NCBI GenBank assembly: GCA_964270895.1
Contig: OZ185440.1
Source: Podarcis filfolensis
Taxonomy: Eukaryota
Direction: 5' to 3' (one strand)
DNA length: 64,000 nt
Position numbers: made by a program. This document shows, one piece after another, positions 25,801-34,800 of this stretch (position 1 is its first letter; every line of letters begins with the position of its first letter).

Positions 25801-28800
25801 GTAATCTTTAACAGGCAAAGCATTCCAAAGAGAAGGGGCCACCACAGAGATGGCCTTTTCTCGCATCACTCTACAGGCAGACTTGTATAGAAAGAGGTAT
25901 TTAGGTCTGATCATTTTTTATACATCAACATTAACACATTGAATTGAGTGCTGCAGGTTCTGCAGGACAAATGTTGTTATGTGGTTCCAACCGCCAGTAC
26001 TTCTCAACATCCTCAGAATTACATCAGCTACAGTTTTTAAACCATACGCAGCCCAAAAAGCACTTTACAATAATTCAACTGGGAAGTTACCATAACATGC
26101 GTTGCTATGGCTAGGCTTCCTAACCAGGAAAGGCCATCACTGACAAACTAGTAATTGGAACTCCTTGCCACCAGGACCATCAAGGACAGCACTGGATCAA
26201 GGAGAGCCCCAAGACCATGAGCTCACTCTTTCAAGAGGAGAACGAACCTATCCAGAACAAACTGTGTATTAAATTCCCAATCAGAGAACCAGCAACACAC
26301 AGGTAATCTAACCTGAATGTTACCAGTCCAGAGCATAGATAAGTGAAGTCAAACTATTAATATTCCAAGTAGAGTTGCATGTGGTGCATCACCTTAAGCT
26401 TATAAAAAGGATGCCATTCCATGGAAGCAACTCACACTTCAAGTGACACAAGTTGTACCTAAGTGTCTACACTCTCTTGTTCCTTACTTGTATCAGAAAA
26501 ATTTCCAGTGTGTGCTGACCCAAGTTACTGGAAGACCCAAATCACTGAATGAGAGCAATTTTTAAAGAATAAAATCTTTATGGACTACTGTGGGATAGCC
26601 CTCCATCAAAATAATGCTTGGGTCAATTAAAAGCCCTTCCTTATTGAGGCTTTACTTAGCTTCAGGTTGTGAAGGAGCAAGAGGCAACAAAAATAAGCCT
26701 ATCATCTCAGTCATTCCCTACTGTTTCTTCACTAGCAGAGGGCAGCCCATAACAGGCATATCATGAAGCCTGCAGGAAGCAAAGGAAAGTGGAAAGAGCA
26801 GACTTTGGTCATTTCCTGTAAAAAGAGCCTGACTGCAATGTGCAGAGAATAACTTGTCTTGGTAGCTGAGAGCATTTGGACCTTTTCACAAATGAAGCAA
26901 CCCAATCTTTTAAAAACAAAACCTGTGTTTATATAAGCTAGCTGCATGAATTCTTGTTGGGCAAATTAACTCTGTGATATGACTCAATATGTAGAGAAAG
27001 AATTTTAACCATTTCAGTTGCTATGAGTGTTTCCATGATTTACAAAGCTCTCCTTCATGCAAGAGCTCAATGGAGACCAAGAGCTGGGAAAATCTATAAG
27101 CTATAAATGAACCAATATACTATCTTTAAATGAAATTGTTGCTAAAAGAAAAGAACATACACTTGCTTCATTAAGGCAAATTATTACTTGGGGCATATTA
27201 TTTGGGACTAAAAGCAAGACCTTGAGATGTTAAACTGGCCCCCCAAAGCTTGAAATACGTGTTTCTTTAGTATTTAAATCAATTGGCAATTAGTGCTTTA
27301 ATTTCTTTTGTGTATAGAATGAAATATTGGCTCCAGCAATATTTGTATTTTGTAGGAAAAGGTAATGCGTATCTTGAGAACTGTAATGCATATCTTGAGA
27401 ACTTTAACTTTCCTTGCCTATTGTTTTAGATAGTAGAATTGAAGTGTATTGCACTATTGCATTATTTGTAATAAGGGTGCCAAGAATCTATCATCAAAGT
27501 AGTATGGAATTCCTGTCGCCTAGGCAGCCCAGGACTTCCAGACACACTGTCTAGGCTTGTGCCCTTAGTAGTAGTGTCCAATATATTTCCAGCGAAAAGC
27601 AGTAAAGTTCAATTCCATACACATACTATTTTCTGTGGAGGTGGATGAGAGGATTTTCACAGCACAAATCCTATCTTTGCATGTCTGCTTGGCTGTATTC
27701 TCCATTTTGCTCATGAATCCAACTCCCTAGTAAGTGTGCTTGGGATTGCATTCTCAGAATTGAATAAGCTTGAAAGGAGGGCAGCTGCTCATAGAATGTG
27801 CACTTATTCTACCACCACTTCCGATAAGCAGATTCTGTAGGTTTTCAAAATAGTACAAAATCTGTAAAACCTTCTTGACCAGAAACAACAGTGGGCATGG
27901 CTACCCTTAAAAGGTACAGGACAGATCACACTGCACACACCGCAGTTCTTTAATTTCCCCTTCTGTTTCTGCTGACCCTCTTCTCCATGACAGTGGTGGT
28001 GGTGACCCGTCCTCGTCCCAGATTATTTTTTTGTCAGTTTGGGTGCATGTTTTTCTTTTTAATAGCAGTGGTAGCCTCTCTGCTTGGAGCATATCATAAT
28101 CCGAATGATATGGCTAATCAAATGGCAATGCTGGTTACCAATTACCCTGCTTCAGCAAAGGATATTCAACTAGATTTTCAGATCCTGTTTGAAAGAAGCT
28201 GCAGTTGCGCCATTTTATGACATTATGCTATGTTGTAATATTTTTTCACCTGGTTTTTCCTCTGCAAGTAGTTACACTGTATTTTATAATATACTGGAAG
28301 CCATATGCCTGGTAATATTTTGCAGCTTCATACAGGCAAATAATGTTTTACTTATAAGCAAAACAAGTTGGATGAAAAAAGCCCAGTTGAACACATTTAC
28401 AAACATAAACATTGATGAAAATAAAAATGCAAATCCTCACTCTTACCAGAACACACTGATCTAGTTCCAATGTATCACAACAAAGTAGAACGTTTTCCCC
28501 CTACATCAGAAATGGAATAGGAGTCAATGATGTTAATTACTTGCAGAAGAGTTACAGTTTTACATACAATATGAATATTTAGTAGGGAGACTTCCTTATT
28601 AATATTTCATAAGAATACTGGCCATCCAAGCTACTTAATAGATTTAAACTTTTAATAAAGATTCTACTGAAAAAGACAGTATCTGCTTGTTTATTTCTGA
28701 GCAACACTCTTGAGATAAATGCCTTACATCAGTGTTCCCCAACCTTGGGCCTCCAGCTGTTTTTGGACTACAATTCCCATCATCCTTGACCACTGGTCTT

Positions 28801-31800: not shown

Positions 31801-34800
31801 GGGGCCCGAGGAGGAGCCCTGCTGGCTCTACAGCCGGCGTTGTGTTTCCCGCCCCTGCTGATTTTTTCCCCCGCGCAAGGCGCGCGCGCCCACTCACCTG
31901 GCCGGCCACCTGGTCTTGGTGCCTCCTCAGCGCCACCTGCGCGGCCGTCACGCGCTGCCTCTCGAGCACCAGCAAGCACGCGGCGCACGCGCACTCCCGC
32001 CAGCGGCACAGCCGCTTGTGGCCCTTGAGGCTGGACACCACGCCGTGGTTCCTGCAGCGCGCGCACTTGGGCAGTCGCTGGCTCAGCAGGCGCCGCGAGC
32101 CGGTGCTGAAAGCGCCGCAGCAGCCCTCGACCTCATGGCCGGGGCGCTCTGAAGAGTTGACGGGGCGGGCAGACTTAGCTTTTCGCTGCTGCCTGGAGGG
32201 CAAGGGCAACATGACGGACCTCTTGCTCGCTGTCTCAGGCCTTCTGAAGCTGTAGCTACTTTTTTTTTTTGGTGGGCTTGAAGGCACCTGCACAGGTTGG
32301 GCTTCACTTTGCTAGACGACAGCAAAGCCGCGTCGCATTTGCAACTTGTCGGGGCTGTAGCGCCCTCTGGCCGAGTCTGCGGCTGCTTCCCGTCGGCTCT
32401 CCTCTACAGCCGTGTCTTCTTCTGTCCTGCGTATTAGTAGCACCTTTTCTGATGAAGGCTCAGCCCGGCCCAGCCGTGATCTTTGACGTCAGTTCTCCAC
32501 TTCTCCCCACCACTTTCCACTCAATCAAATCTATTCTAGGCTTAACCCCTAAAATGCTATAGGACACAAGGCTCTGCTTTGCCGTCCTTCCCACAACACA
32601 CACGTATCGACCCATTTTCGAGTCCTGTACTACATCAATTATTGCCAAGAATCGGATGCATTATGAGAAGAACCTGGACTGTCAGCCTTGCAAGGCACAG
32701 TAAGTGAGGACGGTAATTCAAAATTACGCCTACCAGTGAGCAAGGACTAGGGCGATGTGTTTATTATGTTTCTTCATTACCTTTCTGGCAAGATACTCAC
32801 GGCATTTTACAGCAGAAAAGCACAAAAACAGATGCAACTCCTCCCCCAGCCAGTAAGAAAAAAAAATAATGGAGATTGCAACAGCAGATTTTAAAAAAAT
32901 AATTTTTGTAAATAGGAAACGGTCCTGAAAAACTCCACTGAAATAAGAGTTTTTACTGAACTTTCTTCAGTGGTTCACAGTCTTGACTTAGTCATTTAGC
33001 ATTTTAAAATCAAAACTAGCACCTTGAAACATGGCTGGAAGCAAATCAGTAACCAGTGAAGCTAGTAAAGGATTGGCATAATGTGATACAGCTGGCAGTT
33101 GCATGTGGAACTAATGGAACCTTTTGGGCATTATTTAATGACGGCTCCATGTAGAACATACTGCAGTACTGTAATCCAATCTCAAATTAACAAGAAATTA
33201 CTTTTGGTGTGTAATTCAAAGTTGGTAAAAAGCTGTCCTAGCCACCACTGATATCTGAGCATCTAAGTGCAGTTTTGAGTCTAGAACGCTCAAACTATGT
33301 ATACTTTTTTCCTCATTCAAATGCAGATGTATACATATTTAATCATTTAAATGATTAAAACTAACATGATTAATTGACTAAGATTTATTTAAAAGGGTGA
33401 TAGTCCTATTAATTGGTACGATAAACTAACATTTTAATCTACAATTACAATCTCTTAGCTAACTGATGAAATGAACAATAAATTTCAGGATTTGGGGCTC
33501 TTGTAGCACCAATAACTACAAGACTAGGTAAAAAAATAGTTTGCCATACTTATGACAATTGGCTTCTCTCTCATACTTTCCTATATAGTGATACCTCAGG
33601 TTAACTACTTAATTTGTTCCGGAGGTCCGTTCTTAATCTGAAACTGTTCTTAACCTGAAGCACCACTTTAGTTAATGGGGCCTCCTGCTGCTGCCGCGCC
33701 GCCAGAGCACGATTTCTGTTCTCATCCTGAAGCAAAGTTCTTAACCCGAGGTACTATATCTGGGTTAGCGGAGTCTGTAACCTGAAGCGTATGTAACCCG
33801 AGGTACCACTTTACTTCACAAAAGTCCACTCTCAAGGATCCACAAACAAACAAAAAAGAAACATTCTTTTATATTTAAATACACTATAGTTATTTAAAAT
33901 ATAGAATATTGACTTGAAAACCAGAAAATTCAAAAGCTTACATCTGTAGCACTACAAAAACAAGCAGAACTGCATACATCATTGCAAAATGATCCATGAT
34001 CTCTTGATCCAACTGCTGTTTGTCTTCAGTGTTATGAATTTCAAATTCAGGGTCAACTTTTAAATATAGTGTTTGATTCAGAACTAAAATACTAGAAGAT
34101 AATACTCCCATGTTGTAACACGTGTTCACCTAAGTAGTTGTAACACATGCTCACACAAGTAGTCTTGCACAGCTCTCACTCCTTTTGGTTGAGTTTGCAC
34201 ACAAGAATTTCTTACATGGTGGATTGTGACCTAGTGCACTAGTGCATTATTGTGACCTAGGCCACAATAATTTGTCCATCCTGGCTCATTTGTGATATGA
34301 AAGAGTGATTTCAGCCATGCAGTGATATGGCAAAACGCATCCTGACTAAAATGCCTTTGGCTCTGGATGTTGTTCGGTCACTTGAAATAGGAAATTTTTA
34401 TTAATCCTTCTATTGCTGCTCATTAGGTAAGCCAAGTAGGTATATGTTTGAATTTTCCATTAATTCTTCAACACTGTACTAGTAATTGTATTCAGATAAA
34501 AGTAACCTTGTTAATGTCCCCTCCGCCTTTTAAACATTTGAAGTCTGTTTCAGAACAAAAATGTGACATTTCAAAACTTAAGATCAGTATCAATGTTTAA
34601 TAGATTTAAGCAAAGAAAATGAAACTAACATTTGTAGCTGGTCTTTTTACAACGGAACACATTAAAGCAGAATGCTGTTCTTCATTCTTATTCTGATTTA
34701 TTACAAAAATAAATCCTATCAGGTAAGAACTGTGCTCTTTGCAAGGATGCTACTTTTTCCCAAAGTAAAGGCTGAGTAAGTAAAGGCTCTTCCCCACTTC

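What the first reader, a model, noticed from the sequence alone, without database searches (positions are those of the whole stretch)
28644..32212. Intact dmrt2b-type gene in an amniote, between GLIS1 and DMRTB1
Seen: a complete three-exon DMRT2-type ORF with canonical splice sites, located not in the DMRT1-DMRT3-DMRT2 cluster but directly downstream of DMRTB1. Established (from memory): dmrt2b is best known from fishes, where it lies near dmrt6 and lrp8, and it is absent from this block in human. Inference: this is the retained dmrt2b paralog. Outside the DM domain, the RMRKRRAFADKELE box and the LSFSVES tail it is highly diverged, and its role in reptiles is not known to me.
Basis: partly seen in the sequence, partly recalled or inferred. 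Interest (0 to 1): 0.65.

Follow-up and report, generated by a model that had tools for sequence, protein, structure and literature searches.

The report
Lizard dmrt2b gene beside DMRTB1
This lizard keeps an open copy of dmrt2b, a developmental DNA-binding regulator that papers describe as fish-only, and here a small mobile element sits in frame inside its last coding exon.

Summary
On the minus strand, three exons (32212-31898, 30342-30234, 29530-28644) carry an ATG, GT/AG splice sites and a TAA stop. Exon by exon they match the RefSeq model "DMRT2-like" of Podarcis raffonei at the same junctions: 101/105, 36/36 and 243/246 residues.

Exon 1 encodes a DM domain. The gene starts about 3.8 kb downstream of a four-exon DMRTB1 on the same strand. 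GLIS1 could not be found in the window.

A maximum-likelihood tree puts the gene, with turtle, crocodile and amphisbaenian "DMRT2-like" proteins, inside a clade with coelacanth, lungfish, shark and named fish dmrt2b (support 100/98). DMRT2/dmrt2a falls outside. AU tests reject a recent amniote duplicate (p 1.75e-36) and any DMRT2/2a affinity (p 0.0016). The dmrt2b reading is supported, against papers up to 2025 that call dmrt2b fish-specific.

New here: exon 3 carries a 144-bp palindromic MITE insertion with a 10-bp target duplication. It is in frame and stop-free, adds 48 residues, and is absent from P. raffonei.

Expression and dN/dS were not testable. The joined protein was not built or searched.

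The parts
31898..32212 (-). Exon 1: ATG and 105 codons, including the DM domain; ends in phase 0 before donor GTGAGT
   Evidence: 101/105 residues identical to P. raffonei P0001 residues 1-105.
31937..32077 (-). DM DNA-binding domain (codons 46-92 of exon 1)
   Evidence: Pfam PF00751, 78.9 bits, E 2.5e-22. PDB DMRT1 4YJ0, E 1.7e-23, and Dsx 1LPV, E 2e-14. The Cys/His columns are invariant in 32/32 aligned proteins.
30234..30342 (-). Exon 2: 109 nt, 36 codons plus 1 base; AG acceptor and GT donor
   Evidence: 36/36 residues identical to P0001 residues 106-141.
28644..29530 (-). Exon 3: 2 bases plus 294 codons plus the TAA stop; holds the conserved box, a poorly conserved middle part, the MITE insert and the FSVESLLK tail
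   Evidence: 243/246 aligned residues identical to P0001, plus a 48-residue insertion. The exon-3 protein search is.
29406..29492 (-). Conserved box of the DMRT2 subfamily (SSLSERMRKRR...LERELRQ), predicted to start a long helix
   Evidence: 29/29 identical between Podarcis and Rhineura. M161-E173 is largely invariant in 32/32 rows. In the AlphaFold model of P0001, the 10-residue blocks 161-190 of helix 159-202 average pLDDT 88-95.
28731..28864 (.). Palindromic MITE-like element inserted in exon 3: 134 bp, with arms 28732-28785 and 28810-28863
   Evidence: The 54-nt arms are 98% complementary. It is absent from P. raffonei P0001. The RNA hairpin folds at -119 kcal/mol, z -15.8. There is no other copy in the window: the only 2 matches are its own two arms.
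28721..28730 (.). Target-site duplication, copy 1 (10 bp)
   Evidence: exact 10-nt direct repeat with 144-nt spacing.
28865..28874 (.). Target-site duplication, copy 2 (10 bp)
31500..32750 (.). CpG island over exon 1 and the presumed promoter
   Evidence: in 31800-32500, GC is 0.645 and CpG observed/expected is 0.84 (61 CpG), against 0.23 for the whole window and 0.22 at the 5' end of DMRTB1.
36055..43904 (-). Neighbouring gene DMRTB1 (dmrt6): four exons at 43904-43473, 41297-41046, 38454-38308 and 36159-36055 (tblastn limits, approximate)

Best explanation
This is the lizard ortholog of dmrt2b. dmrt2b is the sister copy of DMRT2/dmrt2a that arose before jawed vertebrates split. It lies in its ancestral tandem position just downstream of DMRTB1 (dmrt6).

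It encodes a sequence-specific DNA-binding transcription factor with these parts:
- a short, poorly conserved N-terminus;
- a zinc-binding DM domain with its recognition helix;
- a long, highly conserved helix that starts with a basic RMRKRR stretch (a possible nuclear-localisation or partner-binding element);
- a long disordered region;
- the short FSVESLLK tail at the very C-terminus.

Shown here: the gene structure, the DM domain, the orthology and the synteny with DMRTB1.

Inferred: it binds DSX/DMRT-type sites, as other vertebrate DMRT proteins do, and acts in embryonic patterning, by analogy with zebrafish dmrt2b (somites and Hedgehog signalling, left-right asymmetry, pharyngeal pouches). 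It is still under purifying selection in lacertoid lizards after a burst of change on the squamate stem.

In this genome a 134-bp MITE inserted into the disordered part of exon 3. With its 10-bp duplication it adds exactly 48 codons, read without a stop. The protein is therefore lengthened rather than truncated. I consider the gene probably still functional here, but that is the weakest step.
For: Gene model. ATG, GT/AG sites and a stop are present. The junctions are those of RefSeq P0001, with 380 of 387 aligned residues identical across the three exons taken separately.

Domain. Pfam DM scores 78.9 bits and the exon matches PDB 4YJ0 and 1LPV.

Orthology, sequence searches. The exon-3 search listed 120 of 136 hits. 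After Podarcis (83% including the gap) and Rhineura (64%) come a crocodile, 9 turtle clusters, coelacanth, lungfish and sharks, then named teleost dmrt2b. No record named dmrt2a appears and no bird, mammal or amphibian appears.

Orthology, tree. The careful tree gives the 2b clade 100/98, the sarcopterygian subclade 96/94, sauropsids 100/100 and DMRT2/2a 94/100.

Two paralogs in one genome. Emydura macquarii has both a 395-aa '2-like' protein (P0009) and a 526-aa DMRT2 (P0148).

2b-type ending. In 11 of the 12 rows of the 2b clade that reach the C-terminus the protein stops 1 residue after FSVESLLK/R; the exception is the coelacanth model, which has a different end. The 3 DMRT2/2a rows run on by about 11 residues (14 rows).

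Synteny. DMRTB1 lies 3.8 kb upstream on the same strand. Gar and coelacanth have a dmrt6-dmrt2b cluster (PMC6737965).

Constraint. Conservation between Podarcis and Rhineura is uneven: DM domain 52/55, box 29/29, N-terminus 22/45, middle part 122/166. Both ORFs are intact at 388 and 391 aa. A CpG island is kept at exon 1.

The insertion. It lies in a segment with pLDDT under 50 in the model (residues 294-374).

DNA binding of DMRT proteins in general: PMC1931443, abstract.
Against: - There is no expression evidence of any kind.
- dN/dS could not be computed, because no orthologous DNA is available in the open collections.
- The squamate stem branch is long: 1.0 substitutions per column, against a path of about 0.26 from the sauropsid node to Emydura. 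This could mean relaxed constraint.
- Among squamates only Podarcis and Rhineura clusters appear. Yet DMRTB1 is annotated in at least 13 other squamate clusters, including Anolis, Sceloporus, snakes, Varanus, Elgaria and a gecko. The gene therefore looks dispensable in most squamates.
- The MITE puts 48 foreign residues and a -119 kcal/mol hairpin into the mRNA. Only 1 of 6 frame/orientation combinations of the insert is stop-free, so an open frame has about a 1-in-6 chance without any selection.
- The crocodile and softshell-turtle models (P0004, P0012) lack the DM domain. That may be an annotation gap or real decay.
- The DM domain of sauropsid copies differs from the otherwise near-invariant DMRT2 sequence at six positions, including Met to Thr in the recognition helix. 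Binding specificity may have changed.
Confidence: 0.72

Rival explanations
1. The gene is a true dmrt2b ortholog but is non-functional, or on its way to loss, in this species. On this reading the MITE insertion in exon 3 is an early lesion in a gene that most other squamates have already lost.
For: - The MITE has a perfect 10-bp target duplication and arms 98% complementary, so the insertion is young. It is absent from P. raffonei.
- It forms a strong hairpin in the CDS.
- A stop-free reading has about a 1-in-6 chance without selection.
- Only 2 squamate clusters appear among the 120 listed hits, although many squamates have an annotated DMRTB1.
- The squamate stem branch is long.
Against: - The frame is open over all three exons, and the start, splice sites and stop are all intact.
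- Only 7 substitutions in 387 aligned residues separate it from P. raffonei, none of them in the DM domain or the box.
- The insertion falls in a disordered, poorly conserved linker and leaves the conserved tail in frame.
- The CpG island is retained.
Confidence: 0.2
2. The gene is a lineage-specific (amniote or sauropsid) duplicate of DMRT2 that moved next to DMRTB1 and diverged fast, rather than the old dmrt2b copy.
For: - RefSeq names it 'DMRT2-like', and one turtle record is simply named DMRT2 (P0007).
- The DM-domain identities are similar: Podarcis against the turtle DMRT2 44/53, against Polyodon dmrt2b 44/53.
- The exon-1 search ranks many dmrt2a proteins high.
Against: - The AU tests reject it (p 1.75e-36; p 0.0016).
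- The 2b clade has support 100/98.
- The turtle 2-like middle region is 46% identical to coelacanth 2b but 17% identical to the same turtle's DMRT2.
- The protein has the 2b-type C-terminal end.
- It shares the position beside dmrt6 with gar and coelacanth.
Confidence: 0.03
3. The three exons are not one gene. On this reading they are a chance ORF, alternative 3' exons of DMRTB1, or a prediction artefact.
For: No transcript evidence was available. There is no AATAAA within 1.6 kb after the stop, only ATTAAA at 583, 692 and 1344 nt.
Against: - The unit has its own ATG, its own CpG island and its own DM domain.
- The same three-part protein is predicted in Podarcis raffonei, Rhineura and 7 turtle clusters that carry a DM domain, all of about 370-400 aa.
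- Each exon aligns to these proteins separately.
- DMRTB1 is complete without them: all 302 residues of P0232 map upstream.
Confidence: 0.02

Closest known systems
Teleost/zebrafish dmrt2b
   Same: - It falls in the same orthology clade.
- It has a DM domain, the RMRKRR...DKELE box and the FSVESLL tail at the very C-terminus.
- It is of similar size: about 390-450 aa in the fish rows, and 388 aa in Podarcis.
   Different: - Outside the conserved blocks identity is low: the middle region is 19/145 identical between Podarcis and Polyodon.
- The N-terminal EIDVESL motif of fish and coelacanth 2b and of DMRT2 is missing in the sauropsid copies.
- Six derived substitutions lie in the DM domain.
- The known fish functions are Hedgehog-dependent somite and slow-muscle patterning, left-right asymmetry and pharyngeal-pouch control of cartilage (abstracts of PMC2749440 and PMC6310889). 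None of these has been tested in any reptile.
DMRT2 / dmrt2a (terra), in the DMRT1-DMRT3-DMRT2 cluster
   Same: It belongs to the same subfamily: the DM domain is 83-87% identical, and the box and the FSVES motif are shared.
   Different: - DMRT2/2a forms a separate clade (94/100) and the AU tests exclude membership.
- DMRT2 proteins are longer: 487-573 aa in the rows used.
- They continue past the FSVES motif.
- Their genomic neighbourhood is different (literature).
[quoted passage not shown]
   Same: This is the same gene. The Podarcis model has identical exon junctions and 98% identity.
   Different: - The window's copy carries the extra 48 codons from the MITE.
- None of these records is named dmrt2b.
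- I found no paper that discusses them.
DMRTB1 (dmrt6), the upstream neighbour
   Same: It is a DM-domain gene on the same strand, in a tandem pair that is also reported for gar and coelacanth.
   Different: - Its DM domain is only about 57% identical over 54 residues.
- It has four exons.
- It has no box, no FSVES tail and no CpG island.

Membership tests
DM-domain transcription factors (Pfam PF00751) | DM domain scoring above the curated Pfam cut-off | tested here: met
   78.9 bits against a cut-off of 27, covering the full profile 1-47/47.
DM-domain transcription factors (Pfam PF00751) | Eight zinc ligands (CCHC and HCCC, intertwined) and the recognition helix | tested here: met
   All Cys/His positions align with DMRT1 4YJ0 and Dsx 1LPV and are invariant in 32/32 rows (C50, C53, H56, H65, C69, C74, C76, C79 in P0001 numbering). 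Which residues are ligands is recalled, not computed. The AlphaFold model gives low confidence for the zinc module, as expected without metal.
DM-domain transcription factors (Pfam PF00751) | Binds DSX/DMRT-type DNA sites | not testable with these tools
   Inferred from PMC1931443 (abstract). The Met to Thr change in the recognition helix makes this worth testing.
DMRT2 subfamily (2a plus 2b) | Conserved box (..RMRKRRAFADKELE..) after the DM domain, and an FSVES C-terminal motif | tested here: met
   The box residues S158 and M161-E173 are invariant or nearly so in 32/32 rows, and F380-E383 are at least 90% conserved. Both are present in the window's exon 3.
dmrt2b orthogroup | Groups with named fish dmrt2b to the exclusion of DMRT2/dmrt2a | tested here: met
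   The clade has support 100/98. Alternative placements are rejected at p 1.75e-36 and p 0.0016. The window's exons entered as two separate rows, and their placement is carried by the near-identical full-length Podarcis protein.
dmrt2b orthogroup | Lies beside dmrt6/DMRTB1, as in gar and coelacanth | tested here: met
   DMRTB1 lies 3.8 kb upstream on the same strand. The literature statement is in PMC6737965. In addition, the 2-like and DMRTB1 records share a contig length in Rhineura (158443526), as do the 2-like record and the DM-W-like record returned by the DMRTB1 search in Latimeria (172207807). That is weak support.
dmrt2b orthogroup | Linkage to lrp8/kank4, as reported for fishes | tested here: inconclusive
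   No LDL-receptor class A motif was found in six frames of the window, and no such Pfam hit among 130 ORFs. The window may simply be too short. The fish synteny comes from PMC7689362.
dmrt2b orthogroup | Coexists with a separate DMRT2 gene in the same genome | not testable with these tools
   Shown for a turtle only (Emydura P0009 and P0148). For this lizard only 64 kb is at hand.
dmrt2b orthogroup | Embryonic expression and function like zebrafish dmrt2b | not testable with these tools
   No expression data could be reached.

The most novel reading that the evidence does not exclude
dmrt2b was not lost at the origin of tetrapods. It persisted in the sauropsid stem and survives today in turtles, crocodilians and lacertoid squamates (lacertids and amphisbaenians). 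It was lost independently in mammals, birds, probably amphibians, and most other squamates.

On the squamate stem it went through a burst of change that altered otherwise invariant DM-domain residues, including one in the recognition helix. It then settled under constraint again, which points to a shifted DNA-binding or partner specificity (a new function).

In this lizard a MITE has been taken up into the coding sequence as 48 extra residues without destroying the gene.
Probability: 0.3. Interest if true: 0.65.

Novelty: new member of a known kind. Interest (0 to 1): 0.5.

Why it matters
Surveys and introductions of the DMRT family state that tetrapods have a single dmrt2 and that dmrt2b is confined to fishes. 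I read these statements in passages of four papers:
- PMC7689362 (2020).
- bioRxiv 10.1101/2025.06.11.659201 (2025).
- PMC12570769 (2025).

An intact, syntenic dmrt2b in a lizard, with counterparts in turtles, a crocodile and an amphisbaenian, corrects that picture. It also changes the count of independent losses.

It gives amniote developmental biology a second DMRT2-type factor to consider in somite, left-right and pharyngeal patterning, or in gonads. It further offers a natural case of a transposon absorbed in frame into a transcription-factor gene.

The correction is modest in scope. The family and its mechanism are known, and genome annotation pipelines already predict the gene under another name.

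Tried and rejected
- GLIS1 and LRP8 as flanks. Motif scans for tandem C2H2 fingers and LDL-receptor class A repeats in six frames found neither, and Pfam on 130 ORFs did not either. All plus-strand ORFs of 55 aa or more left of the gene were inspected and none was convincing. I ran no further search on a guess.
- Cluster membership of the Podarcis, Rhineura and DMRTB1 proteins, to see which other lacertids carry the gene and whether any model includes the insert. The tool answered that its database is switched off. This stays unchecked.
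- Table S1 of PMC6737965, which lists the tetrapods they searched. That table may bear on how strong their 'no tetrapod dmrt2b' claim is.
- Papers naming the reptile loci by LOC number: 0 papers. 'dmrt2-like': 4 papers, all on invertebrates. 'dmrt2b' with 'reptil': 15 papers held both terms and 14 were listed; none of the listed titles or abstract starts reports a reptile copy, and the passages read in five of them do not either. 'dmrt2b' with 'amniot': 2 papers, neither relevant. One search was badly framed and gave nothing useful.
- Precise removal of the MITE by splicing. By eye, the GT in the first target duplication and the AG in the second would cut out 149 nt, which is not a multiple of three. 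Rejected as a rescue.
- DMRTA1 as an outgroup. Its end branch was 4.1 and it sat inside the ingroup in the first quick tree, so it was dropped for the careful tree. That was the only row removed.
- Structure search with the AlphaFold model. Not run, because the mean pLDDT of 52.8 is too low to be meaningful.
- The search of protein representatives, complex prediction and the genome-contig scan were not used. They offer no names or taxonomy, no binding claim was made, and the collection is bacterial and archaeal only.

Full report
**1. What is in the sequence**

The gene lies on the minus strand.
- Exon 1 runs 32212..31898. It starts with ATG, has 105 codons, and is followed by GTGAGT.
- Exon 2 runs 30342..30234. 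It is 109 nt, is preceded by AG, and is followed by GTATGT.
- Exon 3 runs 29530..28644. It is preceded by a pyrimidine-rich tract and AG, and ends in TAA.

The phases fit (0, then 1), which would give a conceptual product of 436 codons. Every search, alignment and tree below used the exons one by one.

Pfam finds a full DM domain in exon 1 (78.9 bits, cut-off 27). It finds nothing in exons 2 and 3. The DM domain aligns with the solved DMRT1 and Doublesex DM domains (4YJ0, E 1.7e-23; 1LPV, E 2e-14).

**2. The model agrees with an independent one**

The exon-3 and exon-1 protein searches both put first a 388-aa RefSeq protein of Podarcis raffonei named 'DMRT2-like isoform X1'. Aligned separately, exon 1 matches it at 101/105 residues, exon 2 at 36/36 and exon 3 at 243/246.

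The window therefore comes from a lacertid lizard very close to Podarcis. This is an inference from protein identity, and the neighbouring DMRTB1 is 98% identical to that of P. lilfordi.

The single large difference is a block of 48 extra residues in the window's exon 3.

**3. The extra block is a transposon**

It is a 134-bp element made of two 54-nt arms that are 98% complementary (28732-28785 and 28810-28863). It is flanked by a perfect 10-bp direct repeat at 28721-28730 and 28865-28874, with 144-nt spacing.
- The 144 nt equal 48 codons, so the frame is kept by length alone.
- Of the six ways of reading the insert (three frames, two orientations), only the one actually used has no stop.
- As RNA it folds into a hairpin of -119 kcal/mol, with z -15.8 against shuffles.
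- No second copy lies in the window: the only 2 matches are its own arms.
- It sits in a stretch that is poorly conserved and is predicted disordered in an AlphaFold model of the Podarcis protein (pLDDT under 50 for residues 294-374). That is about 25 residues before the conserved C-terminal motif, which stays in frame.

**4. Surroundings**

A second DM domain lies at 43904-43473(-). Its best named hits are DMRTB1 of Podarcis lilfordi (98%), Zootoca (92%), Rhineura (73%) and many other squamates, then turtles, alligator, birds and mammals.

All 302 residues of the Podarcis DMRTB1 map to four minus-strand exons. The last ends at 36055. The gene studied here thus starts about 3.8 kb downstream of DMRTB1 on the same strand.
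- A CpG island covers its exon 1 (observed/expected 0.84, against 0.23 for the window). DMRTB1 has none.
- I could not find GLIS1 or LRP8. There is no tandem C2H2 array and no LDL-receptor repeats.
It was not tested.

**5. Which DMRT is it?**

The exon-3 search listed 120 of 136 hits. In order they are Podarcis, Rhineura, an unnamed cluster, Crocodylus porosus, nine turtle clusters interleaved with Latimeria, then sharks, a lungfish, an alligator fragment, and after that almost only teleost, sturgeon and paddlefish proteins named dmrt2b. No record named dmrt2a is listed, and no bird, mammal or amphibian. The database does hold those groups, as the DMRTB1 search shows.

I built a maximum-likelihood tree of 46 rows, using named records only:
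- 9 sauropsid '2-like' proteins;
- coelacanth and lungfish;
- 5 sharks or rays;
- 8 ray-finned dmrt2b;
- 15 DMRT2/dmrt2a, from shark to bird;
- 5 invertebrate outgroups;
- the window's exon 1 and exon 3 as two separate rows.

One row, DMRTA1, was dropped after the first quick tree because of its very long branch.

The result has two clades. DMRT2/2a has support 94/100. A second clade of 26 rows has support 100/98 and holds sharks, fish dmrt2b, coelacanth, lungfish and all sauropsid '2-like' genes, including the window. Inside the second clade the order follows the species tree: sharks first, then ray-finned fishes, then a lobe-finned group (96/94), with sauropsids at 100/100 and squamates at 100/100.

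AU tests reject the tree that joins the sauropsid genes to amniote DMRT2 (154 log-likelihood units worse, p 1.75e-36). They also reject the tree that joins them to all DMRT2/2a rows (29.3 units, p 0.0016).

Further signs of 2b identity:
- The turtle 2-like middle region is 46% identical to coelacanth 2b but 17% identical to the same turtle's DMRT2.
- Eleven of the 12 rows of the 2b clade that reach the C-terminus end one residue after the FSVESLLK/R motif; the coelacanth model is the exception. The three DMRT2/2a rows continue for about 11 residues.
- One turtle species carries both genes (P0009 and P0148).
- Mawaribuchi et al. describe a dmrt6-dmrt2b cluster in gar and coelacanth (PMC6737965, passages), which matches the tandem seen here.

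**6. How it probably works**

- Shown: a DM domain with all Cys/His columns conserved. It is followed, about 60 residues later, by a box that is 29/29 identical between Podarcis and Rhineura. That box forms the start of a long helix predicted with high confidence; the 10-residue blocks 161-190 average pLDDT 88-95. The rest is predicted disordered, and the protein ends in a short conserved tail.
- Inferred: the protein binds DNA as other vertebrate DMRT proteins do. Six of the seven tested selected DSX-like sites, and some form heterodimers (PMC1931443, abstract).
- A lead only: the basic start of the box may serve nuclear import. A chicken DMRT2 study maps a nuclear-localisation signal to residues 169-180 (PMC13314891, passages), but I could not verify that this is the same box.
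- The only functional data for dmrt2b are from zebrafish: Hedgehog-dependent somite and slow-muscle patterning and left-right asymmetry (PMC2749440, abstract), and pharyngeal-pouch control of cartilage (PMC6310889, abstract). Transfer of these roles to reptiles is conjecture.
- The sauropsid DM domains share six changes at positions that are otherwise constant in the subfamily, including Met to Thr in the recognition helix. Specificity may differ.

**7. Is it under selection?**

I could not compute dN/dS, because no orthologous DNA is within reach. The indirect evidence is as follows.
- Intact ORFs of 388 and 391 aa occur in two lineages, lacertid and amphisbaenian. From memory these split well over 100 million years ago.
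- Conservation between them is very uneven: 95-100% in the DM domain and box, 49% in the N-terminus.
- The CpG island is retained.

Against this, the squamate stem is about four times longer than the whole path to a turtle. In addition, no other squamate family appears. Both observations fit a gene that is easy to lose.

**8. Novelty**

The gene family and its mechanism are known, and annotation pipelines already predict the gene as 'DMRT2-like' or as an uncharacterised locus. One turtle record calls it DMRT2.

What I did not find in print is its identification as dmrt2b in any tetrapod.
- The passages I read say the opposite: PMC6737965 (2019), PMC7689362 (2020), bioRxiv 10.1101/2025.06.11.659201 (2025) and PMC12570769 (2025).
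- My searches found no report. 'dmrt2b' alone gave 76 papers, of which 40 were listed. I also searched it with 'reptil' and with 'amniot', and searched 'dmrt2-like', six LOC numbers, and the dmrt family with 'turtle'.
- Johnsen and Andersen 2012 (Gene 505:221) is not in the library, and I know it only through citations.

I therefore rate this a new member of a known kind, of moderate interest. The in-frame MITE is an additional small curiosity.

Noticed in passing
window 48492-49541 (+), within the stop-to-stop ORF 48129-49541: An intronless 350-codon ORF with three mitochondrial-carrier repeats (Pfam Mito_carr, E 4e-47). Its nearest atlas cluster is 'Solute carrier family 25 member 3' (phosphate carrier, score 0.96). 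It lies about 4.6 kb upstream of DMRTB1 on the other strand and looks like an intact retrocopy of SLC25A3. From memory only, a SLC25A3 pseudogene lies near DMRTB1 in human; I did not check this.
   Followed up: partly
protein hits compared (no window coordinates): Among squamates, the dmrt2b-type protein appears only for Podarcis and Rhineura, both lacertoids. DMRTB1 is annotated in Anolis, Sceloporus, Phrynocephalus, Varanus, Elgaria, Hemicordylus, a gecko and several snakes. This suggests loss, or missed annotation, in most squamates.
   Followed up: partly
proteins P0004 (Crocodylus porosus, 314 aa), P0012 (Pelodiscus sinensis, 303 aa) and P0020 (Alligator mississippiensis, 170 aa): These models of the same gene lack the DM domain. 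Either the GC-rich first exon is missing from the assemblies or models, or the gene is decaying there.
   Followed up: no
window 31672-31696 (+), 43338-43362 (-), 55976-56000 (-): There are three copies of a SINE-like repeat motif, each next to an (AAT)n or A-rich tail. One lies in intron 1 of the dmrt2b gene and one in intron 1 of DMRTB1 (0 expected by chance).
   Followed up: partly
window 18066-18551 (+) and 18734-18796 (+): A LINE-like reverse-transcriptase C-terminal ORF (162 aa, no Pfam hit at E 0.01) is followed by a single C2H2 finger. This is the only finger-like motif near where GLIS1 was expected, and it is not GLIS1.
   Followed up: partly
window 31800-32500 compared with 43400-44300: The two neighbouring DM genes differ sharply in promoter type. 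There is a CpG island at dmrt2b exon 1 (observed/expected 0.84) and none at DMRTB1 (0.22).
   Followed up: no
protein P0007 (Chelydra serpentina, 382 aa): [quoted passage not shown] It is probably a misnaming that can mislead family surveys.
   Followed up: yes
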